Assembly: GCA_051362555.1 (NCBI GenBank)
Contig: CM120640.1
Span: forward strand, 37,591,967 to 37,655,966
Origin: Lingula anatina
Taxonomy: Eukaryota > Animalia > Brachiopoda
Direction: 5' to 3'
DNA length: 64,000 nucleotides
The position numbers were made by a program, and so were the translations under genes. The notes under the pieces are model-generated. The model did not search any database and was not told the DNA's origin. It was given only the letters and a program-made list of their open reading frames with translations. Shown here piece after piece: positions 1,225-37,043 of the stretch; position 1 is the first letter of the stretch; every line of letters starts with the position of its first letter.

Positions 1225-1984
1225 ATGAAGGTAACGGCGCTTTACCTACTGGCTGCCACAGTGGCAATGGTTGTGTTCTGTGTGGAGGGTCAAGGTTGGT
1301 ATTCCTTAGTTCACATATTTCTGAAAACTGTTATTGTTATTTCATTGTTATTGACATAATTTGAATTTTGAATGTATTGGGAGACTGCTGAAACACAGGG
1401 CTTATGAAGAGCCAATACTACACACATTGTAAAAAAAATGCATAATGCATGAACTAAATGTCACAAAACACAATGTTAAAAAAAAAATCGAAAAAAAAAT
1501 ACATGGTAATGTATGCCTTTTATTTTTAGAAGTTAGCAAATGTGCTGTGTCCTACAGACATGTTGCTTTCTCAGCTGGCCGTTCCACCGACCTTCAAGCA
1601 ACTGGTAAACCAGCAACTATAATCTATGATGCTGTAATCCTGAACGAGGGCCATGCCTATGATGAAGCCACCGGAATATTTACTGCCCCCATGTCTGGGG
1701 TATTCGTCTTCCACTTCCACGCCATCAACTACCACACTAAACGTCTGTATTTGTGGCTAGTTCACAATGGAAAGAGAATCAACAGCGGCTACGCACACCC
1801 TACCCAGCATTATGCAACTGGCAGTAACAGTGCTGCCCTGCATCTGACAGAGGGGGACAGAGTCTGGATTGAGCTGGAGAATGGATACGGTCTGCACAAT
1901 CACCCTGGAGAGAACCACTCTACCTTTACTGGTTACCTACTGTACCCTGAGAACAGTGGACTACAGCTGATTGCCACTGGTTAA
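1225..1984 (+). CDS. Secreted globular-head C1q domain-containing protein (about 174 aa, 2 coding exons: 1225-1294, 1530-1984)
   Basis: Signal peptide MKVTALYLLAATVAMVVFCVEGQ joins in phase 1 (G|GT...TTTAG|AA) to a gC1q domain: VAFSA, IIYDAVILNEGHAYDEATGIFTAPMSGVFVFHFH, NSAALHLTEGDRVWIE, STFTGYLLY. No collagen repeats. Confidence 0.93.
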
Positions 1985-15013: not shown

Positions 15014-15298
15014 CAACCTTTTGACCAATGCTGTATTGACATGGCCCCCGGCTACATAATGCATGTAGGTGAACCAAGACGACACTCGTACTTGTCCAGA
15101 GCACTACCATAATCTTGATACAGTGGCTTACTGGACCCAGATAATGAGAAGTATACATTAATTACGTTATGTTATACAATGCATGTCTTTATCTTTGCTG
15201 GGATTCAAGATAGATCTTCGGATCCATCCTAGGGTATTGGTAAGATACAAGCTCCGCCTACATACACCAGTTTATCTGCTTACCTGGAACATTGCAAG

Positions 15299-16255
15299 AT
15301 GGAGCATGTCCACATCCCCGTCATAGACATGTCTGCGGCAAAGGCCAAACGTGCGGAAACGGCCGCGCGTTTAGGCGCTGCGTTAGAGAGCGTGGGTTTT
15401 GTTTGCCTGGAAAAAGTGCCTGGTTTCGATTCGGACGAGCTGCACCGAATGACACAATGGTTTTTTTCTCTCCCGCTCTCGGCAAAAAACAAGCTGGCTA
15501 CAAAGAGATGGAACCCAGAGTCTAAGAATGTGTATCGGGGGTATTTCCCATCGGTTAGAAATGAGGTTTCATACAAAGAGGGGTATGAAATAGGCCGTGC
15601 ACTTAGCTCGTGTGACAGCCGCGATCGACAAATAGCGCTGTATGAACCAAATCAGTGGCCCGAGGAAAACTCAAAGGACGGCGTTCGCTTCTGCGATTTC
15701 ATGGAGAAGTATCATGAAACCATGTCTAACTGCGGCATGGAAGTGATGCGCCTCATAGCTTGCAGTCTTGGTATGGAGAACGACACGTTCGATGGTCTAT
15801 TTATGAAGAAACCGCTGTCGACGCTCCGGCTACTGCATTACCCACCACGAGACTGTGAGCCTATTCCCCAGGCGCGAGACGGCCATTTTACCCTCCATTG
15901 CTCCGACCACACTGACTCTGGTTTTGTTACTCTCCTTTCTACATTCCACTACGGGGGGCTTCAAATACGAGACGAAGATGACCAGTGGGTGAACGTGGAG
16001 CCACGCCCAAATGCCCTTGTGATGAATATTGGCGACATGCTGGCCCGAATGACCAAGGGGAAATACAAGGCCACCCGACATCGCGTTGTAGACTTAGGAG
16101 TGGATCGGTTCTCTGTACCCTTTTTCTTCGAACCATCTTTCGATGCGGTTGTCGGTGAAGTCGACGGAGAGAAAGTGAAATATGGCCCCTGGCTTGTAAA
16201 AAAGATGAAGGAGTTTGCAGAGTACAAGGATACTGACTTTGGCATGGTAAATTGA
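15299..16255 (+). CDS. Isopenicillin N synthase-like 2-oxoglutarate/Fe(II)-dependent oxygenase (318 aa, single coding exon)
   Basis: DIOX_N-type start (IPVIDMS...ALESVGFVCL...FFSLPLSAKNKL...YRGYFP...KEGYEIG), LRLLHYPP, iron triad H-T-D (DHTDSGFVTLL) plus H (ATRHRV), ALVMNIGDML, and the R-x-S motif RFSVPFFFEP. Confidence 0.92.
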   Translation: MEHVHIPVIDMSAAKAKRAETAARLGAALESVGFVCLEKVPGFDSDELHRMTQWFFSLPLSAKNKLATKRWNPESKNVYRGYFPSVRNEVSYKEGYEIGRALSSCDSRDRQIALYEPNQWPEENSKDGVRFCDFMEKYHETMSNCGMEVMRLIACSLGMENDTFDGLFMKKPLSTLRLLHYPPRDCEPIPQARDGHFTLHCSDHTDSGFVTLLSTFHYGGLQIRDEDDQWVNVEPRPNALVMNIGDMLARMTKGKYKATRHRVVDLGVDRFSVPFFFEPSFDAVVGEVDGEKVKYGPWLVKKMKEFAEYKDTDFGMVN

Positions 16256-19298: not shown

Positions 19299-21752
19299 TC
19301 AAAGTTGCGGGAAAAAGAGGGCTTCTGGGAAGAATTTGGCATATATACTTAAGGCTTGCAGAGAACCCGCCCACACTTGAGGGACGGCAATTCTATTACT
19401 CCAAAGAGGCTTCCCCACAGGGTTTGGTCCATTGTACACATAAAACTCCCCAAGATGATTGAAATGGGGAACTTCAAGGATTGACACGTTCATAGCTTTC
19501 TCTACTATTTGGCGGTCGCTGCTATCTTTTGGTAAAAACATTAAAAGGGGAATTATATAGTTTGCGTCATATCCAGCATTCATCCCTGGCTTGGGAGCAA
19601 CAACTCGAGCCTGAAGAAGGTCAACCCCCAATGTGACAACGCGTTTCCACATTCTTTGCGCAATGGGATCTGATTGGTTGGAGGGGTTTAAAAGTGGGAG
19701 TGGCCATACCGTATATGGTAGCACTGGTTTCATGAATTGCGTTGCATTAAAAAAGGATGGGTCAAAGAAGTTTTTCTTTATGGCGGTGCTTAGCTCAATT
19801 GCTCGTTCATGCCAAGGTCGCCATATTTCTTCTGGTTCTTTCAGTAAGGCAGCCGCTTCAGATGCGGCCAGCAAACCCAACATGATCGTTGAGGCACCCT
19901 CTCCTCCTTGCGTGTAGAACGGAGTATCGTCTTCGCTGGAAAGGCATTGGAGGCCGTTTGTTGGGTCTTTACATCTGTAAGTAAGCAGGTTTGCTGCACG
20001 AAACACGGATTCCTTAATAACTGCCCAGTACTCTGTCGCATCCTGAATCGATATTCGAGGAATGTGCATACACATTGCCCACAAGGCAAAACCCGTTTCG
20101 TCGATTTCGAAGTTCACCGGTCCCGTGGCACACCCATCACTGAAATAACACATCGCATAGGACCCAGCCGGGGAGTAGTTCAATGAGTCATTGTGCAACA
20201 CGCCACCGGGTTGATAGTCCTGGAAGTCATGTCGTCTCTGAATAGAAGCAAGAAATTTCCCATGAGACATTACTTCCTCATCATACCCACCACATACAGT
20301 AAGTAAGTAATGGGGGAATGCCGTGTCTCTTGGCCATTCGAAATTATGCCATCGAGTCATTGACGTCCCTGCCACCAGGGAACCTGTTGCAAGCGTCTGG
20401 GCCGATTTTACAGTCAACAAAGACCGTTTAAACATAGGCATGTATGTCTCTTGTTGTGGAGCGGTCATTTTGGACGCTGGGTTATTTTTACATTTGTTAA
20501 GGAACTCTCCATCTGCTGCTTCTGCGTTCGCTTGCATGGCTCCCGGTCCACCCGGGTAGTTTTTCGCCAACTGAACCTTCCGCCGAGCTTCAGCAAGATT
20601 ACTCCCAAGTCCTATGTAAATAGACACGTCCCATTCCCATTTAGATTTTGCATTTTCTTCGTTTAACATAATAGCCCCAAAGAAATTCTCATGCCCAGGG
20701 GAGGCATGTGACCATGGGTTACGACCAGTCTGCTGGTTGAGATTAAAATGGGTCATTACATCGAACGCGTCATCGTAGTAAAGGTATTCATTGTAACTGT
20801 GGTCAACGCCACAATAATATGGGCCGAAATCATCGGAACTACCAACAGCCATTGCCACTCTTGGTTCCCAACTGCTGTCAACGGTTTTTGCCCAATCCCG
20901 AGGGTTTAGCGTTCGAATGTTAAGCATCTGTACTTGCTTTAAGTACTCACTTTTGTGTTTACCTGGGTCTGTTGGTAAAGCGCTCATAAATACCCCTGCC
21001 TTATCATCATAAACTAGAGAGAATCCATGCACGGCGTCTTTATCTTCTATGGATCCAATCAAGGAGCTCCAGTCGTAGGCGGGGAAACAGTCCTTTTTGG
21101 CCACAGAACAGTTGTGAATATCTCTATTCATCAAAGCTGGGTTCATATAAAATATATATCCCCAGGTGCCTACGGGTTTATTAATCCTAGTGATATTACA
21201 GCGCCTTACCAGCACATCTATGTCGGGCTCTATAAACCAGACACAGTCCGCTGTGTACAATGGTTCCTGGTTAGGGGTTGCTGGATTGTCATCCGACTTG
21301 TATCGGGTTCGGAAAATGTCCGTATTGTCGTTCAGATACCCGGTGGTCTCCACAATAAAGTGGGAGCTGTTTCGAAATAAGCGACCTCCCGAATCGAACA
21401 AGATCCCATCCGCTGCGCCTTGGTTCTCTCGCGCACCCTTCCGCGGTGTCTGGCTCGCCTTCTCGTGAGTGAGCTCAATGCGGAAATCAAGGTGATCATC
21501 GTAGCTGGGAGACGGCCAACGTAGCTGTGTCAGGGTCCCGTCTCCGATGAACCCTGCAGTCGTGCGACCATGCCCGCTGACCGCTTCTTGTGAGGGATCG
21601 CAGCAGATCTGTAGACCGTCTCGACAATAGTACAAGTCGATAGGGTCAACACTCGGTGCAGCATTTTGAGACACGAGTCCCAAAATAAACATTAATATGC
21701 CACTCAATGTGTGAAGGCACATCGTGAGCAACGAAGCATCGCTTTGATACAT
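19299..21752 (-). CDS. Secreted GH15-like (glucoamylase/glucodextranase-type) six-hairpin glycoside hydrolase (817 aa, intronless)
   Basis: Hydrophobic N-terminus; prokaryote-type N-terminal domain (SGHGRTTAGFIGDGTLTQLRWPSPSY); catalytic-barrel motifs TGSLVAG, WPRDTAF, FEIDETGFALWA, DPTNGLQCLSSEDD (position of DLWEE), HLGEF (position of LSEQ) and VPQVWAG (position of PLxWS). Confidence 0.8.
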   Translation of the reverse strand: MYQSDASLLTMCLHTLSGILMFILGLVSQNAAPSVDPIDLYYCRDGLQICCDPSQEAVSGHGRTTAGFIGDGTLTQLRWPSPSYDDHLDFRIELTHEKASQTPRKGARENQGAADGILFDSGGRLFRNSSHFIVETTGYLNDNTDIFRTRYKSDDNPATPNQEPLYTADCVWFIEPDIDVLVRRCNITRINKPVGTWGYIFYMNPALMNRDIHNCSVAKKDCFPAYDWSSLIGSIEDKDAVHGFSLVYDDKAGVFMSALPTDPGKHKSEYLKQVQMLNIRTLNPRDWAKTVDSSWEPRVAMAVGSSDDFGPYYCGVDHSYNEYLYYDDAFDVMTHFNLNQQTGRNPWSHASPGHENFFGAIMLNEENAKSKWEWDVSIYIGLGSNLAEARRKVQLAKNYPGGPGAMQANAEAADGEFLNKCKNNPASKMTAPQQETYMPMFKRSLLTVKSAQTLATGSLVAGTSMTRWHNFEWPRDTAFPHYLLTVCGGYDEEVMSHGKFLASIQRRHDFQDYQPGGVLHNDSLNYSPAGSYAMCYFSDGCATGPVNFEIDETGFALWAMCMHIPRISIQDATEYWAVIKESVFRAANLLTYRCKDPTNGLQCLSSEDDTPFYTQGGEGASTIMLGLLAASEAAALLKEPEEIWRPWHERAIELSTAIKKNFFDPSFFNATQFMKPVLPYTVWPLPLLNPSNQSDPIAQRMWKRVVTLGVDLLQARVVAPKPGMNAGYDANYIIPLLMFLPKDSSDRQIVEKAMNVSILEVPHFNHLGEFYVYNGPNPVGKPLWSNRIAVPQVWAGSLQALSIYAKFFPEALFFPQL

Positions 21753-22553
21753 ACGCGAGATTTCCTTTAGCAGGTATGTGTAATGAGCCTAGGTACAAAA
21801 TACTGCAGCTTAATCAGCTTGCTGTATCTGTATAGGGGCTTTAATATTATATAGGTCATTGGTGTGACCTTTGTCTATCTACGATGGCAATGTATACATC
21901 ATGTCTATTTTACTTCTCTGGTCCAAAGGTATACAGGTTATCGTAATAGATTAGGCGAAATATAAGAATAACCTTGGTCATGATATAATTTGTGCTTTTG
22001 CCAAACGTGATTTTATATTGGTACAGTTGAAATTAAGTCTGACTGAAAATCTCAGCGGCATGTATTATTTTATCTATTTTTTCTGTTATATTTATTTACT
22101 TATTGAGGAGGGGTGTTGGGGTGTTCTAGGGCAAAATAGTCGATCCAGCAGATACTCGTCAGGATTTCCACGAATCGGTGTGTTTTTACATCGATACATG
22201 ACTTTTCATTAATATTAATATTGATATCCTTGCATCTACAGATCCCTGCACCCATAGACCGGATTACCATGTCTTGTTATAAGATGAAAAAATGACCCGA
22301 CAGAACTCGTTTTATTACAACAGCTTTTCGTACTGTTTTATTATAATCTCACTTAGAGATAGCAGCATGCTTTTGAGAATCTCATGCCCTCCTCCCCCCC
22401 CCCTCCCCCCCACTCACACACGCACAAAAATGAGGAGTGATTCAATTCGCAAAAACATTAAATTATTTTTTCGAGAAAAATACATTGGTTAAAAGGATGC
22501 AATTTAAAATACACACAAATTTTCAATAAAAAATCAATTTTACAAAAATCGAA

Positions 22554-25500
22554 TTATTTTCCAATGATAGGCACTGTTGCGCTGTCCACACTGATGTCTG
22601 CCTCATAGATGAAGAGCAGAGTGCTGCTGACTGTGGTGCCCCCTACCAGCTGATTCACACCAAGTCTCTTCACATATGCTGCTGCCCTCTGTTGGTGAGC
22701 GGCGTCGTATCTTGACATAGCAGCGTGACAGAAAGCACCCCAACCCTTCAATAAACGTTGTTATCAGGCAAATGAGAAAAAAAAAGAAAAAAGCTGCACC
22801 CGGAGAGATTATTGGGTAAATAAAGATACAAGACAATTTCACATTTTCAACAAATAAATTCCTCGATGTGTACTTCATTTTGCTAAAAAGTTGTTTGGTA
22901 ATTGGAACTGCCCACAATGAACTGTTCGGTGCTGTTTTATAGAAAATGAATTAATTTTAATCATATATAGGTTAAAATCATTGAATATTTAAGGAGAATG
23001 TACAGACACTCACCGAAGCAACTGGTCTTAGTTTGGATTGATCTACTAAGTTAGACCCCGGGGCGGACGTAGGGTTCACAGCCCACGAACACGTATTCTT
23101 GATGGAGGCAGACCATTCCTGGCGAAAAATTCCATACTGTCTAACTTTACAAGTACGTTTGACAATATTAAAAAAAGATTCCATTCCATGGGCTACCTTC
23201 GGAAAGAGAGAGAGAGGAAGAGAGAGAGAGAGAGAGAGAAAGTGAACAGTGGTGAGTTAACGCAAAAATGCCAAGAAGGAGAAATAAAAAATAAACAAAT
23301 GAAAAATAATAACAAAATTATGAAAGTATGGATATAACGACCAAAACCAAGTAATTAAACAAATAAATATTTAAAAAAACTTGCCTTGTCAACCCAGTAC
23401 TTGGAGACAGCGGTGAGTGGTATCATCTGTATCCCAGTCAGACAGGCATGCCTCATGGGGAACCAGTTTGGCTCACAAGGCCAGTTCAACGTGTAGAGAA
23501 AGTAGTTGTTTTCGGCCAGCATGCCCACGACTCCGTAATCCTGGATGACTGGTGGGAAAAGATGACGATTGTGACGACGCACTTGCCAATATTCTCTCAC
23601 TGAATACAGCTCTTGGGTCAACATCAACTGTCCCATGTGCTGCATGGTCCTGTCGCCAAGAGATAAACCCAATGCCGCCAGGCCGTGATAGCAATTAATG
23701 GCCTACAAAATAGTAGAGATCGAAAAAAAGGAGTGATTTCTAGATGAATGTTGCATTCTTCGTTTTATTGATATTGTTAAGTATACAGATTTACTGATGA
23801 TATAAATGCATACTCTTCTTTAATTTGAAAGATAAGACGGACAAAAAAGAGAAAAGAGATGACAGCAATCATTTTCATTTCAAAGTAAAATTGGAAATGA
23901 TTAAGTTTAAACCAAAGAAACTATAATGACATCCGTTAATCGGTTATTAAATCTTTACATAATTGCGGAGAAGCACGAGGACTTTCTAACCTCGGAGGAG
24001 GATTCCTCTTGCCTCTCGCCGCCGTGTATCCCAGTGGCCCAGGAAAATCCAGTATAGGTGTCTTTGTGTCGAACAACGGGGAAGTAAGGGTCATTCTTGC
24101 TGGGGTTACCGACGTCTCTGGCCAGGAGGGTTAAGCGCTCTCTGTGGACTAAAACGAGAGGCAATGGGGGCGGTAAAGTGCATTCTCTTCACAGTGACAA
24201 ACGCAGGAGACAAACCTTATTTTGAAACTATAGCAAATACACATGCATGTCGCGATTTAAATAACTATGTAGGTCATATATTGAGCTTAAAGGGCAAAAT
24301 CATAATTAGCGGAGTATTTTTGTGTAGGACATAATACACAAAATCGGGTTAATCACGTTGATCCAAGCCCACCAAAACTCGTTATTCTTCGCGTTAAAAT
24401 TATAAATGCCACCAATACAAGAGTAGCGAAACATCTTGTTCTTTGTTAAAAATACTATTGAATAATAGGAATAAGGGAAAGTATCTTACTGTTTGCCCAA
24501 CTTGGATAGTATTTAGCATAATAGGCCGCGGCATACAAGAAATAGCCCAAGTGGAAGTGGTGATCTGCGTAGATGGGGAATCCAAAGCTGGCTCCGGGGT
24601 TGATCGGTTGACCGGCAGGACCACTGCGCAGGAGAAGACCTCCCCACACTGTGTCGTAACGAAACTTGTTGCCGTCGCTCAGGGTATCTAAATGCAAGAA
24701 AAATTAATTCACCTTTTTTTAGTACAAATAATAATAGATCGAAAAAACAATGTTTTGGTAAGAAAACCTTTAATCTTAACATTTCACAGAGATAGTGTTA
24801 CTCAAGGCAGATAAATATTCTGGATGTACGTATGACTTGCTTGAAAAAAAAATCAAAAAGTTTTTTTATCAACTCCTAAGTCTGTGCCTTTCTTGTGTAC
24901 TATAACTGACCTTGAATACGAAGCCATTTTTCCAAACAATTTTTGATCTGAGCGTCCAATTTTTGATAATGGTTGGTTCCAAAAGCACGTGAGATGCTAG
25001 CCACTCGCGCAGCCGCAGAGATGAACTTGCCGACACCATAACTGTCAGCGTAACCGCACACGGAAGACAGGGGGAGCTGTGCGGTGTCAGTGGCAATAGC
25101 ATTCAAGATGTCCTTTAAGAAAGAAACGGATGTGATTTTGGAATAAGACAAAAGATGCGAAAATGTTATCAGAAATTTCATTTAGTGAAGTGTTGCTCCT
25201 ATTGTTTTCCTAAAAAGTGATGCGACCCATTTTTTTTCTATCTATGAACCAATAATGTTTTGTTCTATGTTCTACACTAGTTTAGAAGCAAAGCTAAAAT
25301 GATAATGATTAATGTTTTGTGAAGAAGGAGATAAGGAGTTCAAATAAAATTTACGTAAAAAACTATAACGACTTTTGAAAAGTTATTGAAGTCACTTACT
25401 TGCCGTCTAGCGCTGTTTGCTTTAACTTTGTTCACGTCTCTAACGTCTGGTTCCATTGAGGCAGGTAACAAAGGCATCTCTTGTTGCCAACTGTCCCCTA

Positions 25501-28500
25501 CAGCTACTTTGAATGTGTAGGGAGTGTTGACATTCAGGATTGCAGGGGATTTCAAAAGTTGCTCCTAAAATTTCGAAAAGCACATCTTTTCGACATATTC
25601 ATAATCTTTACGCAATAAAAATGACTAAGACTCATTTGGTATCAATTAAAAATACAGTGCAAAATAGTACATAACTTTGTCTAAAACATACATGGATATT
25701 TTGCATTTGGTGATGTCAGAGACTATTTAGAGGTTTGTATTTAATTGCATTAAGTTACATTTATAAAAAAATTCAATTTATTTTGAGGTCGAAACGAAAC
25801 AACAGTTGAACTGAAGTAGCTTATTGGTACAATACTATATTTGTAAACTCACATGGTGAGGCATAAGCATCATCAGCAATTGACCAGTCCCTCCCATGCC
25901 ATTCACTATTCTCTTGTTCCAGTCAAAGCTGATGTATCCCTTGTCTCCAGAGACGCAGTAACTAGTATCTGGTTTATATGGATAAACACCAATGTACTTG
26001 TCATGAAAACTAGCCATATCCAAATTTCCGCGTACATTTGCTCCACCATAAGCCATCTGCAATACGCCGTTGAAAACCCCTCCGGCTTGGGGAGCGAACT
26101 CAAGCTGCCCATTGGAGCCAACACGATAGGTCATCGCCTCAGAAAAGTACAGCACAAACTTTCGCGTTTGTTGTGGCAGTTTGTTTCCTGGTTCATTTAA
26201 CTCTAAGACGAACTTAGTATTCGGGGCAATGTTCACGGGGCGAGGTTTTACAGTTGGTGGTGCTGTGTTTGCCGTGTTTTGGGATGGCACTCCGGGTCTC
26301 GGGGTCGTTTGAGGATTCCTGCAGTCATGGGCGTAAGGCGTTTCAGTCCACTTACTTGGTGGCATGACGAATCGGCCTATAATATTGACAGCGTAACTAA
26401 CCCTACTGGAAGGGCTGTATTTTCGGTAGATAATAGTTTTGTGGTCACTGGAAAGTTCACATGTAGACTGAGAGCACGTGGCCATGTAATGGTGACTAGC
26501 CCATGTGTCCTGCGTGTGAAAGGCAAATTGGACCTTGTTGAGGTCGCTGACAGGCTGGGAAAGCTTAACAATAAGAGCGACATCGTATCCAGCACCATTC
26601 ACTACACAGACAGGCAAGTGGCAGAAACTCTGTTTGCAAGAATAGCCAAGATAAGAATCAACAGATGAACCCGGTATAATGGGGTTGGGGCTTGGTGTCG
26701 TTGGCGGCACTGGGTAAGAAGTTGGGGAAGACCCGCATTCATGTCTAAATGGCAATTCGTGCCAATTTCTCGGTGGCTGAATGAACGTTCCAATTACGTT
26801 AACTGCATACTTAACTGGCGTGACCGAGTTCAGCAATCTGCGAGTCGTCACCGTCTTCTTGTCCTGGGACAGTTGGCAAGTATTGGCGTTGCAAGAGAGC
26901 ATAGGATGATGTCCATCCCAACTATTCTCTGTGGCCACTGCAAACTGGACATCTTCAACCTTTTTAACTGGCCTGTCCAGCTTTATGGTCAACTGGAAGT
27001 TGTTCTTGCCGTTTTGGATATTACAAGTTGGGAAGTGGCAGAATGACTTTGAGCATGCCAATTCCGCGGCTCGCTTTCCTCGATTGCCGCAAGTATGGGT
27101 GATTGGCTGGTCTATCCAGCTTCTTCCGTAGGGCAATATGTAACTACCAATGACGTTGACAGCAAAGCTGAATGCTCCTAAAACGAAGTGGAAAATGGAA
27201 TATTCAACGCACTTTAGTTGTATTTATTTTAAAGAATTGTATTTGACATGTCCCACGATTTCTAAAAATCGTATTGAGTATTCGGTGAAGTCGATAATGT
27301 CATGCATGTATGAAGTGATATATGACTTCACGCCTTAAGAAGGCTTGAAAATGTAACACAAAACTGAGGAAAACAACGATAATTCAAGCTTAAATTTAAA
27401 TGCACCTCCAGTTACAGGTGTCCTTATGGTCACAGTTTTTCCACCGTTGCTTACGGTGCACTCGTCCTTGCACGTGTGCATGCCGTGACTGCTTCTCCAG
27501 GCAGAAGATGGCGCTGCGGCCCACTGGATCTTACTAATATCTTGCTGTTTGGTCATGTGCAGAGTGATAACAAGATTAGAGCCGTCACAGCTGGCGGAGG
27601 TGTAGCCTTCACCTCCATCTCGCCCTAGAAACGTGAACGCCGGATTATAATTTCAATAGAATTGCCTTTGTATTCATACTTTTATTTGTTAATCAACGTA
27701 ATGTGACAACACACGAGGACTAACATTTTTATCAATATAAGCTGATTAATTCTTTTTGCGCAAATGTTACGATTGTTTGCACGCGCTTTAACGGTACAAA
27801 TAAGGTGACATCATCTTACTTCACTGTATATGCCTTTTGTGGTTGTCTTTATACATGTCACTCAATATCAGTGACATATCGAAAATAATGCCGCATTTCT
27901 TGTTTACCGTTTTAATGAATAATAATAATATCAATAATAATAAACAGCTTCCCATACGGAGACTGAACACCCATCACCTCTTTTCAGTGTAAATCGTCGT
28001 CCGGGGTTTTAACAAGTAATGATGACATGAAGAGTGGTCAGGCCGCTTAATATTTGATAAGAATGAGTGTACCATTTCTCATCTGTCATTGATTCTCACG
28101 AGAACATTGGCGAAGATAGGACGGGGATAACAAAAAAGGTCCTTTTTCACTTGGGCAATTAACCTGTTCATCATCATTGATTTGACCGAAAGCAAGCAAA
28201 GTGAATAAAGATAAAAGTTTGCTTGTCCATATTACCCTGAGCTTCCACTGGACAAGACGACTGTACGGGGTTTCCGTTGATGGAAGCAAGGCAGAAGGCT
28301 GTTACTTGTGGATTCGCATTGGTAAATAAATGCGTGAGAATTGGACTTCCACGCACCAAAGGAACCTAAATAATTACATGAGGAACGATATTATTAAGGA
28401 GTTTGACTGAATGAACCTATCAGTATTCGATTATTAATTTATATATTCCGTTTTTTTTTTAGTAATATTAAACATTTCTGATTAGATTTTTACCTCCATA

Positions 28501-30212
28501 TTTCCACCATTATTGTTCGCAAACTCAAAATTTGCATACATCTCCCCCATGGCAGTGACTTCGGCATCCCCGCTGTTCTCAATACCGACACGTACTCCGG
28601 ATTTTCCTTTCGATATGTAATATATTTTTACAAATAGTCATGGAGTACTAAGCATAAATTTATCACAAAGAAATTCATTATTTCGATCCAAAATTCTGTA
28701 AAAAAAAAATGGTCGAACAAGCGTATAAGTATTATAAGGTAAACGAAAGTTTGAGAGCAGTTTTGTCGTTAGGAATTTTACGGATCTTTTCTCATGGGGG
28801 GTAGTTGGAGAAATTCAGATACACGTTTCACAATATAAGGAAACGACAAGCGTTTGTTGACAAGAATGATTATTTTTCTTAAACAGTTTAAATTCCCCTG
28901 TAGAGGAGGACCGATATTACACCCACCGGAAAAAGTACCGAAGGGATTTCCGTCCGGTCCAGTTACCATTTGTTTAGCGTTGGTTCCCATACTAGTTATT
29001 TTATTCCAAGGTTCCCCAACCTTGGTCAGCGTCTGCTGCTGCATCTCGTCAGTTCTGGAAGCTTTGTTCCAACGGTCCATTGGATAGGCGTCGTATGTTA
29101 TTCCATCCGAGCTCATAACGACTGAAATCACATATTCATTGATACAATAAAATATGGGAAGAAGAAACACGTATCAACCAAAATGAAAGCCTTGTGAGAG
29201 GAGCGAAGCTTCGTGGTATCTGTATTTCTTGCATTTTAACTGTTTTATTTAAAAAACACATTTAAGTTCCATCTCAGTCTAATCCTTACAGTGGCCTAAA
29301 TTTGCTAGTTTTTTTCCAGTGGAGAATTAATTAACATAATTGCTGAACACTCACCGGAAAATGGAAACTGTCGTATTGGAACCATTCCCTTTTTCATTTG
29401 ATTGATTGCAAAATGGTGCGTCGGCAGGGCGCCCAGTGAGCGCATTTTGCCGAAACGTTTGGAAGGGGGCGCCACTCCAAGAAGCTCGGCATTGGCCTCG
29501 TATATTGTGGCTGGGTTTTTGTCAGAGTAGACTTTGTTGTTTAATGGTGTGCATCCTGGAGGAATAGCCGCCAACGCACCGCAGATGACTACAGTGAAAT
29601 CGAAACAAAACAAGACGTTAAAGTAGATTCATCTGCATTTGTAGCGTAGTAACAACAGTCTGGTGGGATTACAATTGCATTAATACCTTATTTGCAGGTG
29701 ATGCATCTTGTGCGTAACTTAGAATGTTTTGAAACATCATCATTCACTTGCAACCGTCCATATATATAGTACATATACATATATACATATGTCACAAAGA
29801 CAAGTGGTTCTTGTTTCAGTACTGTCCCTGGCGTTTTTAACAGGATACAACAGTGACCCTTCACTTATGGCCACGGTTTCGGGTTCGCATCGTTTTTCAT
29901 GTGAAATTTTACCGTATAAAAATCAGAAATGATGATTGACCAAATACATGAACAAAACTTTATACCCATATTTCACAAGAGAATGTATTTATTGATATTT
30001 AACTGCATGATATACTTAATTACTAATACATGTGCGTATATATACTGTGCAGATCGGGACTTATTTTGGAGTTATTCTAGTTCCACTACTCAACACACTA
30101 AAACTGACTCACAAAAACAAGTGTGATAAATAAAATCTAAAGCACTTTTACCTGAAAGTGCGCCAAAGAGGAGAAAAAGCATTGTCCAACTGTGTCCAAC
30201 CAGTAGTACCAT
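22554..30212 (-). CDS. Secreted glycoside hydrolase family 81 endo-1,3-beta-glucanase (about 1200 aa, 14 exons) with three inserted modules of about 100 aa
   Basis: Phase-consistent exons: 30152-30212, 29355-29588, about 28939-29121, about 28494-28606, 28236-28365, 27406-27624, 25853-27177, 25400-25564, 24911-25112, 24490-24687, 23991-24148, 23385-23702, 23014-23118, 22554-22745. Signal peptide MVLLVGHSWTMLFLLFGALSVICGALA. GH81 motifs: PLVRGSP, LMMLMPHH, DSYGVGK, RYDTVWGG, FGFPIYADHHFHLGYFLYAAA, LARDVGNPS...DPYFPVVRHKDTYTGFSWATG, QEESSSEAINCY, GIQMIPLT. The exon 3/4 junction is the least certain. Confidence 0.9.
23204..23238. repeat. (GA)n microsatellite (intronic)
   Basis: Interrupted GA run. 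Confidence 0.85.
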
Positions 30213-34963: not shown

Positions 34964-36410
34964 ATGCCGTGAAAGTTGATGCGACGTTTCAAAATGCTTT
35001 TAGGTGCTGCCGGAATCGTCGATCTTCCGACTCTCTTTTGCGGGAGGCTGTATTTCAAGAATAATGTCAGATTTTGATATTTGATCTTTTAATTGCTTAT
35101 GGAAATAAGGCACCGACATACAGAATCATCGCGTAACGCTGTGTTTATCAGAATATCCAACATTTTTCATTACTAGTTCATAATCCCGGTGATATTTCAC
35201 GTTGTGAATCGTTAAAATGCTGATGTGCAACAGTGCTCATTTCATTTTAACGATACAGTTTGTAGGACAGCAAGACAAAAATTCAGGTCAAGTTACACTT
35301 CACCTGGTTGCGAACTACTTTCCAGTGACAGTCAAGCTGCGTAGGCATTCACGCCAAGTTCTTTTAAACCGAACATGGTCCTGAAACGCCTCACCAATCA
35401 TTTAAAATTGCAGGGTTGTTCGAGGTACGTGTTAGTGGCAAGACTTATGGAGCATGCAGTACACGTGTAGTTGTTTCACGAAAGAATTGAAGCTCCAAAA
35501 ACTGGCCTTAATATTAACGTCATTCCAAGAAACCGAGTAAATCCATAGTGGCTCGTGAATAAGCAGTGGCCTAAAACATTACCCATGTCTTTCTTTTGGT
35601 ACTGTACGAAAGGCGCGGAATTTCAGTAGACATCGGATCACAACTGACTTATATGTATTTTGGGTCAAAGTAAACTAACATTTGAGCATAAATCCTCAGA
35701 CTCGTATTCGGACTGAGGGTTTTTTCGGTCCTTTTTTGAAACAGGATCTCGAAAATTTTCATTCTAAAACTGATTTTTTTCCTTCAATTTCGAGGCCTGT
35801 TATTAAATAAATTCAGATACTGTACTGATATTTGTCAGCCGATTTGTTGCTTTTTTACTGGGTGCTATCAGGCACTTTTGTGATTTTTCCTTAGACTCTA
35901 AAAATATCATTTTCATAATGAAACTTAACATTTCTAAAGCACCTGTTTTCACTCCATAGCACCTGTTATTATCAACTTTTTGCGTTTCTGTAGCTGTTGC
36001 TATGTGAAATTTGCTAATGAATGCGTTCTCACAGACTTAATGGGTCGTTGATTCATAATGTGCATTCGCTCCTTCTGATCGTGCTTCGAATGTGTTTAGA
36101 GAGATAGGGTTTCTGGATTTTACAAATTGCCTCACTGGATTAAAAAACGAACTCTTGTCCTTTTTTTTTTAGAAAACTGCAAGACCAAAGGTTCGCCACA
36201 GTATTTCCGTTGCATGTAGAGCGCCTCAACTTCAGTGAGTCACCGAAATCCAAAGAATATAAGAAATTTGTCCCACAATCAATCAGGACATTGGGACTTT
36301 GACGCTTCGTCACGGATCGAAGGATGTTATGACAACGGCGGAGTGTAGATGAACGTTTTGTGCTGTTATTGTGTTAAGCATATATCTGATATATTAACAA
36401 ACTTGATAAG

Positions 36411-37043
36411 ATGTCGGAATATAGTCGACTGACAGTGGAGAACTTGGCTAAAATAGACACTGTGCCGAGTCAGACTCACGGACGAAGGCAGTCCGTGGTG
36501 ACGTCGACGTCCCACCAGAGCTCCGAGCTTATGCAGTTACGAAGAGCGTCGCGTTTTGACGGGTCGGGGCCACAGCCTGGGGGGAGGCGGCTGTCCACGT
36601 TGTCAAGGGGGAGCTTAGCGGGGATCCATATGATGCACCGGGCCAGCCGTGGGGACGCTCTCCTCGCTGCGCGCTTGCCTAAAAATTTCCAAAACACGTA
36701 CAAAATGACACCAGATCCTGGGGAGCGATTTAACGCCTCGCGGGTCGAGAAATCTATTAGCTCTTTACTGGCCTCCTATCTAGAGGGCGTCCAGTACAAC
36801 CCTATAACGTGCGCACAGCTTTCGCAGACTTTGACAGAGGCTGTGAAAGGTAGAGTGAAGGATATGAACTTTCCACGGTACAAGTTTGTGTGTAGTGTGA
36901 TCGTCGGGCAGAATACAGGACAAGGACTATATGTGGCAAGTAGAAGCATATGGGATGCGGGCACAGACAACTACGCCACTGCGGCGTACTCAAATGCTAC
37001 GCTATTTGCAGTAGCAATGGTCTTTGCTACCTACTTTGAGTAA
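36411..37043 (+). CDS. Tctex1 domain-containing dynein light chain (TCTEX1D1/DYNLT5-like), 210 aa
   Basis: Ser/Arg-rich N-terminus followed by the Tctex-1 domain: NTYKMTP...F...YLEGVQY...VKGRVKDMNFPRYKFVCSVIVGQNTGQGLYVASRSIWDAGTDNYATAAYSNATLFAVAMVFATYFE. The exact paralogue cannot be resolved by eye. Confidence 0.92.
   Translation: MSEYSRLTVENLAKIDTVPSQTHGRRQSVVTSTSHQSSELMQLRRASRFDGSGPQPGGRRLSTLSRGSLAGIHMMHRASRGDALLAARLPKNFQNTYKMTPDPGERFNASRVEKSISSLLASYLEGVQYNPITCAQLSQTLTEAVKGRVKDMNFPRYKFVCSVIVGQNTGQGLYVASRSIWDAGTDNYATAAYSNATLFAVAMVFATYFE

What the first reader, a model, noticed from the sequence alone, without database searches (positions are those of the whole stretch)
26321..27605. Three tandem copies of an unrecognised Cys/His/Trp module of about 100 aa inserted inside a GH81 beta-1,3-glucanase
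Seen in the spliced translation are three homologous units. R1: SASCDGSNLVITLHMTK...KIQWAAAPSSAWRSSHGMHTCKDECTVSNGGKTVTI...FAVNVIGSYILPYGRSWIDQPITHTC. R2: PTC...LTIKLDRPV...DVQFAVATENSWDGHHPMLSCNANTCQLSQDKKTVT...YAVNVIGTFIQPPRNWHELPFRHEC. R3: PVC...LIVKLSQPV...KVQFAFHTQDTWASHHYMATCSQSTCELSSDHKTII...YAVNIIGRFVMPPSKWTETPYAHDC. The consensus is Q[FW]A-x6-W-x3-H-x-M-x2-C-x3-4-C-x2-S-x3-KT...[YF]AVN[VI]IG...P...W-x3-P-x2-H-x-C. They lie between the N-terminal GH81 motif PLVRGSP and the resumption of GH81-like sequence (KFVLEL...KFVLYFS), with Pro/Thr linkers after R2 and R3. Established: glycosidases often carry linker-tethered carbohydrate-binding modules, and the characterised GH81 enzymes I recall lack such an internal array. 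Inference: this is a disulfide-bonded beta-rich module with conserved aromatic and His residues, and a candidate new beta-glucan (laminarin or fungal wall) binding module or pattern-recognition domain.
Basis: partly seen in the sequence, partly recalled or inferred. Interest (0 to 1): 0.85.

Follow-up and report, generated by a model that had tools for sequence, protein, structure and literature searches.

The report
Sugar-grip-like modules inside animal glucanase
This marine-invertebrate gene encodes an enzyme that likely digests the beta-1,3-glucan sugars of algae and fungi; it carries three copies of a small unnamed domain inserted into one loop of its core, a domain shared by the same enzyme in molluscs, worms, sea urchins and lancelets and predicted to fold like known glucan-gripping modules, so it may be an undescribed animal sugar-binding module.

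Summary
The three repeats are real (shuffle z above 20) and lie in frame in an expressed, likely secreted 1230-aa GH81 glucanase, 99% identical to a Lingula anatina protein. They are not a one-off: 35 of 36 animal-type GH81 hits carry 1-3 copies in the same loop, 0 of 16 non-animal hits do. Pfam, NCBIfam and PDB sequence searches do not name the module. AlphaFold2 (pLDDT 84) gives Ig-like beta-sandwiches whose best match is the beta-1,3-glucan-binding CBM56 (Z 9.2, rmsd 1.9 A, 84 residues, 7% identity), tied with a chitinase Ig domain (Z 8.6); sequence profiles do not link it to CBM56. A dibasic, convertase-like site follows copy 1 in 23 of 26 non-echinoderm proteins. Best reading (0.55): an unnamed CBM56-like glucan-binding module of a digestive enzyme; binding is untested. 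The scan reported the same module earlier in two oyster windows. New variant of a known kind.

The parts
22554..30212 (-). GH81 endo-beta-1,3-glucanase gene, 14 exons, 1230 aa; one intron (after 23385) is modelled with a GC donor
   Evidence: Open spliced frame; PF03639 and PF17652 above cut-off in the 99% identical P0002; sparse RNA coverage of exons
30152..30212 (-). Exon 1: start codon and most of a predicted signal peptide
   Evidence: RNA joint 29588/30152 in 3 reads of run X8; only strongly hydrophobic window of the protein; no signal-peptide predictor was run
28236..28365 (-). Exon with the GH81 PLVRGSP motif and the strand that precedes the insertion
   Evidence: Aligns to 4k35 and 6fop N-terminal domain; anchors
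27406..27624 (-). Module copy R1, first exon (first-copy class)
   Evidence: no RNA read covered it in 8 runs
27178..27405 (-). Intron inside R1; position appears shared with other animals
   Evidence: GT-AG, same splice in P0002; 14 unnamed fragments break off at the same column (inference)
27089..27177 (-). Module copy R1, C-terminal part
27071..27082 (-). RGKR, predicted proprotein-convertase (furin-type) site between R1 and R2
   Evidence: Dibasic site in 23 of 32 first-copy linkers versus 6.6% background; cleavage untested
26735..27055 (-). Module copy R2 (later-copy class, six Cys)
   Evidence: RNA reads in run X8
26639..26734 (-). Pro/Ser/Thr linker between R2 and R3
   Evidence: 59% P/S/T; pLDDT under 50 at model residues 116-126
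26321..26638 (-). Module copy R3 (sister of R2, six Cys)
   Evidence: RNA reads in run X9
26219..26320 (-). Pro/Thr linker from R3 back to the GH81 core
   Evidence: 44% P/S/T
25853..26218 (-). Resumption of the GH81 N-terminal domain, in the same exon as R2 and R3
   Evidence: PF03639 E 2.3e-5, profile positions 173-272
24551..24565 (-). DHHFH motif with the conserved catalytic-site Asp
   Evidence: Aligned to 6fop and 4k35; catalytic role recalled
23991..24011 (-). QEESSSE motif with the two conserved catalytic-site Glu
   Evidence: catalytic role recalled

Best explanation
The three repeats are copies of an unnamed ~100-residue domain, predicted to be an Ig-like beta-sandwich, inserted into one loop of a likely secreted digestive GH81 beta-1,3-glucanase, where they likely act as carbohydrate-binding modules that hold the enzyme on insoluble or helical beta-1,3-glucan from algal and fungal food. 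Shown: the repeats, their frame, the insertion point, the intact catalytic residues and the spread across animal GH81s. Predicted: the fold, which matches CBM56 best. Inferred: two core disulfides; a binding face on strands C and F made of the near-invariant Gln, Ala, Ala and Asn flanked by two Trp; and a convertase cut after copy 1 that would turn the loop insert into two free arms on a two-chain enzyme. Binding itself is untested.
For: (1) Top fold match among 48,161 chains is BhCBM56 (5t7a: Z 9.2, rmsd 1.9 A, 84 of 92 residues); a second CBM56 (6a6c, 5h9y) scores Z 8.3; only 3 chains reached Z 8 in the tool's count. BhCBM56 is the appended module of a bacterial GH81 (PMC7915573 section 9). 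Removing CBM56 lowers GH81 activity on curdlan about 2.4-3-fold (PMC9609564 passages). (2) At 30% median identity, outward positions of strands C and F are near-invariant and polar or small (Q 72, A 61, A 71, N 72 of 73), while outward positions of strands B and E vary; Trp 63 and 71 of 73. By eye, Gln and Asn fall in the register of the conserved His and Thr of CBM56 (inference). (3) Copy number varies from 1 to 3 with Pro/Thr linkers, as tandem CBMs do. (4) The host enzyme keeps Asp/Glu/Glu in 31 of 33 animal rows. (5) Molluscan GH81 is reported in hepatopancreas and annelid GH81 is listed among digestive enzymes (PMC11083476 table passage).
Against: No sequence link to CBM56: hhalign probability 0.25%, E 0.25, while the same method links CBM56 to a single CBM39 sequence at E 8e-4. 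Z 9.2 is only modestly above the typical best of 7-8 and is tied with a chitinase ChiW Ig domain (Z 8.6); Foldseek returned only antibody-type Ig folds. One Mactra GH81 carries a true CBM39 in addition to two modules, so the modules may do something else. No binding data exist.
Confidence: 0.55

Rival explanations
1. The modules are structural: copy 1 docks on the GH81 core and stabilises it or extends its cleft, and later copies are spacers, like accessory Ig domains of other glycosidases.
For: Fold matches tied with or just below CBM56 are accessory Ig/E-set domains of glycosidases (ChiW 5gzt Z 8.6; cyclomaltodextrinase 1ea9 Z 7.8). Copy 1 is never lost in full-length proteins, forms its own branch (99/99) and has a short Cys-bearing tether.
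Against: Gln, Asn, Trp and Pro are as conserved in later copies as in copy 1, although later copies hang on disordered linkers. Non-animal GH81s work with an 8-18 residue loop here (7 of 8 rows).
Confidence: 0.2
2. The modules bind something other than the substrate, such as chitin, gut mucus or a gut-surface protein, and retain the enzyme in the digestive tract.
For: A Lingula paralogue with a single copy has an additional N-terminal Cys-rich domain, and echinoderm forms have a Kunitz domain behind a hydrophobic stretch, so localisation devices are common in this enzyme group. A shared fold shows no ligand.
Against: The best fold match binds the very substrate of the host enzyme. The module was found only in GH81 context.
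Confidence: 0.12
3. The modules are immune pattern-recognition domains that sense fungal glucan, like the N-terminal domain of insect betaGRP/GNBP3, and are released by cleavage at the dibasic site.
For: CBM56 and the GNBP3 domain share a fold (rmsd 1.9 A, PMC7915573); a conserved dibasic site exists.
Against: betaGRP has an inactive glucanase domain, whereas this enzyme keeps its catalytic residues. No CBM39 similarity. A cut after copy 1 leaves every module attached to a piece of the core. Reported expression in molluscs is hepatopancreas and gonad, not haemolymph.
Confidence: 0.08
4. The insert is an inhibitory pro-part that blocks the enzyme until the dibasic site is cut.
For: Dibasic site in 23 of 26 non-echinoderm first-copy linkers.
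Against: 0 of 6 echinoderm-type proteins have the site yet keep both modules. A single cut releases nothing.
Confidence: 0.05

Closest known systems
CBM56 (Pfam PF22184): BhCBM56 of Bacillus halodurans GH81 BH0236 (PDB 5t7a) and CBM56 of Paenibacillus barengoltzii GH64 (6a6c, 5h9y)
   Same: About 90-100 residues, Ig-like beta-sandwich, best structural match (Z 9.2 and 8.3, rmsd 1.9-2.5 A); attached to a beta-1,3-glucanase; conserved polar pair on strands C and F (register inferred).
   Different: 7-11% identity, no Pfam or profile-profile match; four Cys per copy against about 0.01 in 98 CBM56 sequences; inserted inside the catalytic protein's N-terminal domain, not appended; animal, not bacterial.
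GH81 endo-beta-1,3-glucanases RmLam81A (4k35, 5xbz), CtLam81A (6fop), BhGH81 (5t4a, 5v1w)
   Same: Both Pfam domains and the catalytic Asp/Glu/Glu motifs.
   Different: The loop between two strands of the N-terminal domain is 8-18 residues in 7 of 8 non-animal sequences aligned, 405 here and 137-416 in other animals. Extra modules of characterised GH81s are appended (CBM6, CBM56, CBM52; PMC9609564 passages).
CBM39, N-terminal domain of insect betaGRP/GNBP3
   Same: About 100 residues, Ig fold, beta-1,3-glucan context; fold shared with CBM56.
   Different: No PF15886 match, no profile match to the one CBM39 sequence tested; host enzyme looks active.
Ig-like domain of Paenibacillus chitinase ChiW (5gzt, residues 465-558)
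   Same: Z 8.6, rmsd 2.0 A over 85 residues, tied with CBM56; accessory domain inside a glycosidase.
   Different: 6% identity; different enzyme family and substrate.

Membership tests
GH81 (host protein) | PF03639 and PF17652 above curated cut-offs | tested here: met
   P0002 (99% identical): 48.5 and 185.7 bits against cut-offs of 25.6
GH81 (host protein) | Catalytic Asp in DHHFH and two Glu in the ExxxE motif (roles recalled) | tested here: met
GH81 (host protein) | Endo-beta-1,3-glucanase activity | not testable with these tools
   Needs an enzyme assay
CBM56 | Match to PF22184 | tested here: not met
   No hit at E up to 1 for R1a, R2, R3 or the module fragments; 8 of 8 bacterial controls hit at 57-92 bits
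CBM56 | Detectable profile-profile homology | tested here: not met
   73 module copies against 98 CBM56 sequences: probability 0.25%, E 0.25; best cross-hmmsearch E 0.05 in 73 sequences; control CBM56 against CBM39 E 8e-4. The CBM56 set was picked by one motif and is narrow.
CBM56 | Ig-like beta-sandwich superposable on BhCBM56 | tested here: met
   Predicted model, Z 9.2, rmsd 1.9 A, 84 aligned; tied within 1 Z with 5gzt
CBM56 | Binding residues on one sheet face conserved | tested here: inconclusive
   Gln/Asn in place of His/Thr by eye; no residue-level superposition; the primary paper was not held
CBM56 | Binds beta-1,3-glucan | not testable with these tools
   Needs a binding assay
CBM39 / betaGRP-N | Match to PF15886 | tested here: not met
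   the same scan finds CBM39 at the N terminus of P0027 (E 2.6e-23)
CBM39 / betaGRP-N | Structural match | tested here: inconclusive
   Not among the 50 rows shown of 465 chains with Z of 5 or more

The most novel reading that the evidence does not exclude
An undescribed animal family of disulfide-locked beta-1,3-glucan-binding modules, convergent on or very remotely related to CBM56/CBM39. It was inserted once into a GH81 loop and duplicated before the protostome-deuterostome split. In most lineages a convertase opens the loop so that the mature enzyme is a two-chain glucanase with glucan-gripping arms on both new ends.
Probability: 0.3. Interest if true: 0.7.

Novelty: new variant of a known kind. 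Interest (0 to 1): 0.5.

Why it matters
Laminarin and related beta-1,3-glucans are a main food carbon for marine grazers and filter feeders (general knowledge). Animal GH81 genes are noted in surveys, but I found no biochemical study or description of this insert in 8 literature searches. If the module binds glucan it would found a new CBM family of animal origin, give a small stable probe for beta-glucan, and explain how these animals attack insoluble glucan. The test is cheap: one 100-residue domain and four point mutants (Gln, Asn, two Trp; the His residues are the wrong controls). If it does not bind, it is one more accessory Ig domain.

Tried and rejected
Single-sequence AlphaFold2 gave pLDDT 36 and was discarded. 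Sequence searches of PDB with module profiles gave nothing better than E 0.46. Foldseek on the two-domain model returned antibody-type chains only, and their re-alignment reached Z 6.8 at most. The ESM Atlas gave one answer, for the first copy of P0012 with GH81 clusters skipped: no usable hit and no structure search; this shows neither novelty nor absence. The module profile found nothing in 5 + 401 + 401 prokaryote genomes (two of the 5 recur in the phylum samples); there was no positive control, so this is weak. A word search of 469-2000 aa proteins with the module profile returned 5 proteins, all animal GH81; shorter proteins were covered only by the 4-row profile. Viral and metagenome contigs could not be scanned for the module, which has no stretch conserved enough for that tool. 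A forced global hhalign against CBM56 collapsed to 3 columns and is uninformative. No indexed RNA holder was listed. RNA depth of about 1-3 reads is too low to test exon skipping; no skipping joint was listed and the first R1 exon had no reads in 8 runs. P0073 (1 of 35 hits) is a low-complexity false hit, lost on refining the profile. Rejected: chance repeats, a pseudogene or mis-splice, a His-based metal site, a new fold, and a Lingula-only feature. No whole genome is held for this window. No complex prediction was sent. CBM39 was not among the listed fold matches, which does not exclude it.

Full report
Observation. Six-frame translation shows the three units on the minus strand as described. 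A gene model with 14 exons (30212-22554) is open for 1230 codons. It starts with a hydrophobic, signal-peptide-like segment; the first intron is confirmed by 3 RNA reads. R1 is split by one intron. R2, R3 and the resumed GH81 sequence share one 1325-base exon. Repeat similarity is far beyond chance: scores 128, 138 and 270 against shuffle maxima of 46-57. The only hit of R2-R3 among 306 long candidates was P0002, a Lingula anatina RefSeq protein. It has the same splices and 8 differences in 995 residues, so the window is probably an allele or duplicate of that brachiopod gene.

Expression. Eight RNA runs were laid; 0 to 34 reads matched per run. Runs X8 and X9 cover R2 and R3 at depth 1-3. No run covered the first R1 exon. 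Of 24 variants listed, 22 are exonic and 19 of these are synonymous, as expected for a gene under selection in this frame. Depth is too low to test exon skipping.

Host enzyme. P0002 passes both GH81 Pfam cut-offs and matches all 8 GH81 sequences found in PDB (best E 2e-24). The Asp and two Glu that I recall as catalytic are present in 31 of 33 animal rows of alignment A7; one row has Asn and one a gap. The insert replaces a short loop of the N-terminal beta-sandwich domain: 8-18 residues in 7 of 8 non-animal rows, 405 here and 137-416 in other animals.

Distribution. A search with the GH81 part gave 52 proteins (only the best 7996 candidates were scored). Thirty-six are animal-type: molluscs, annelid, brachiopod, hemichordate, echinoderms, amphioxus and three unnamed. 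An iterated profile finds the module in 35 of these 36; the miss, P0035, is a partial protein without the N-terminal domain. It finds none in 16 non-animal GH81s. Four proteins have three copies, 27 have two, two full-length Lingula paralogues have one, and two are partial. A full HMMER scan of 1.84 billion representatives with the 4-row repeat profile gave 35 hits. Thirty-four carry the module; four are the GH81s above, and the unnamed rest look like GH81 fragments or single exons (inference). One is a false hit. No cnidarian, arthropod or vertebrate name appeared, which these searches cannot turn into absence.

History. In a tree of 67 complete copies (6 fragment rows left out; 103 columns, many forks unresolved), first copies and later copies fall on two sides of one branch (99/99). 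Both sides hold protostomes and deuterostomes, and Lingula R2 and R3 are sisters (98/92). So the first duplication looks older than the split of these groups, and the third copy here is lineage-specific (inference; the tree is unrooted).

Conservation. In 73 complete copies (median identity 30%) the near-invariant residues are Gln 72, the central Cys pair 73 and 73, Ala 71, Asn 72, Trp 71, Pro 71 and the last Cys 72; also Trp 63, Met 64 and first Cys 63. No His column exceeds 29.

Fold. With a 36-row alignment AlphaFold2 gave mean pLDDT 84 for R2-linker-R3: two beta-sandwiches and a disordered linker. Against 48,161 representative chains the top rows were BhCBM56 (Z 9.2, rmsd 1.9 A, 84 aligned, 7% identity), the ChiW Ig domain (8.6, 2.0 A, 85) and a second CBM56 (8.3, 2.4-2.5 A, 81, two entries); generic Ig/FN3 domains followed at 7.8 and below. 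Foldseek saw only antibody-type folds.

CBM56 membership. I collected 98 bacterial CBM56 sequences with a recalled motif (8 of 8 checked hit PF22184). Profile-profile comparison with the module failed (probability 0.25%), although CBM56 matched one CBM39 sequence at E 8e-4. The module has four Cys per copy, CBM56 almost none. It is therefore not filed as CBM56. It may still work like one. Alternation of hydrophobic columns puts the invariant Gln and Asn on the outward face of strands C and F, where CBM56 has conserved His and Thr, while the other sheet's outward positions vary (register by eye; the His column is fixed by my search motif). CBM56 is reported to bind laminarin on the surface that GNBP3 uses (PMC7915573 section 9).

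Dibasic site. KR or RR lies within 26 residues after copy 1 in 23 of 32 proteins: 23 of 26 outside echinoderms and 0 of 6 echinoderm-type. The background is 183 of 2772 windows. Here it reads RGKR, and the single-copy paralogues have RRRR. A cut would split the N-terminal domain's chain without releasing anything, leaving R1 on one piece and R2-R3 on the other. This is inference.

Mechanism. Most likely (0.55) the enzyme is secreted into the gut, the modules dock on insoluble or helical beta-1,3-glucan, and the GH81 core cuts it. Deleting CBM56 from bacterial GH81s costs 2.4-3-fold activity on curdlan (PMC9609564 passages). Rivals: structural domain 0.2, other ligand 0.12, immune sensor 0.08, pro-part 0.05.

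Literature. Eight searches showed no description of this insert in listings or abstract openings. I read passages of PMC7560691 (molluscan GH81 in hepatopancreas; 25% of the genes with a recognised CBM), PMC11083476, PMC9609564 and PMC7915573 (section 9). The supplement of PMC7560691 could not be read and may show GH81 domain drawings. The primary BhCBM56 paper (Hettle 2017) was seen only as a reference entry. CAZy, InterPro and AlphaFold DB were not available, and subscription journals are mostly not covered.

Earlier scan notes. After these results I found two unchecked AI notes on oyster windows that describe the same module, one naming CBM56 and the cut motif. They agree but are not independent evidence.

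Verdict. Real, ancient, unnamed module; known fold class; plausible and easily tested glucan-binding role. New variant of a known kind, interest 0.5.

Noticed in passing
window 19302-21788 (-): Uninterrupted 829-codon frame just downstream of the GH81 gene, in a stretch of higher GC (0.465 at 20001-22000 against 0.376 overall), with a hydrophobic N terminus. No Pfam or PDB hit; weak match to TIGR01577 oligosaccharide amylase, E 2.9e-10, far below cut-off. Possibly a divergent GH15-like glycosidase.
   Followed up: partly
P0049: An unnamed non-animal GH81 has a different 77-residue, six-Cys insert in the same loop, so this loop has taken up modules more than once.
   Followed up: partly
P0027, P0028, P0030-P0032, P0036: A Mactra GH81 has an N-terminal CBM39; echinoderm-type GH81s have a Kunitz domain and lack the dibasic site.
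   Followed up: partly
P0003: Lingula paralogue with a single module and an N-terminal Cys-rich segment that resembles a chitin-binding type 2 domain by eye but has no Pfam hit at E 0.05.
   Followed up: no
window 23385-23196 (-): The intron after 23385 needs a GC donor; the RefSeq model P0002 reads through it and ends in intron-like sequence, so its C terminus is probably wrong.
   Followed up: partly
P0038: Volvox protein with two complete GH81 units joined by a Pro-rich linker.
   Followed up: no
window 1433-1981 (+), 15233-16252 (+), 36390-37040 (+): Ordinary neighbours: C1q domain, 2OG-Fe(II) oxygenase and Tctex-1 family frames.
   Followed up: no
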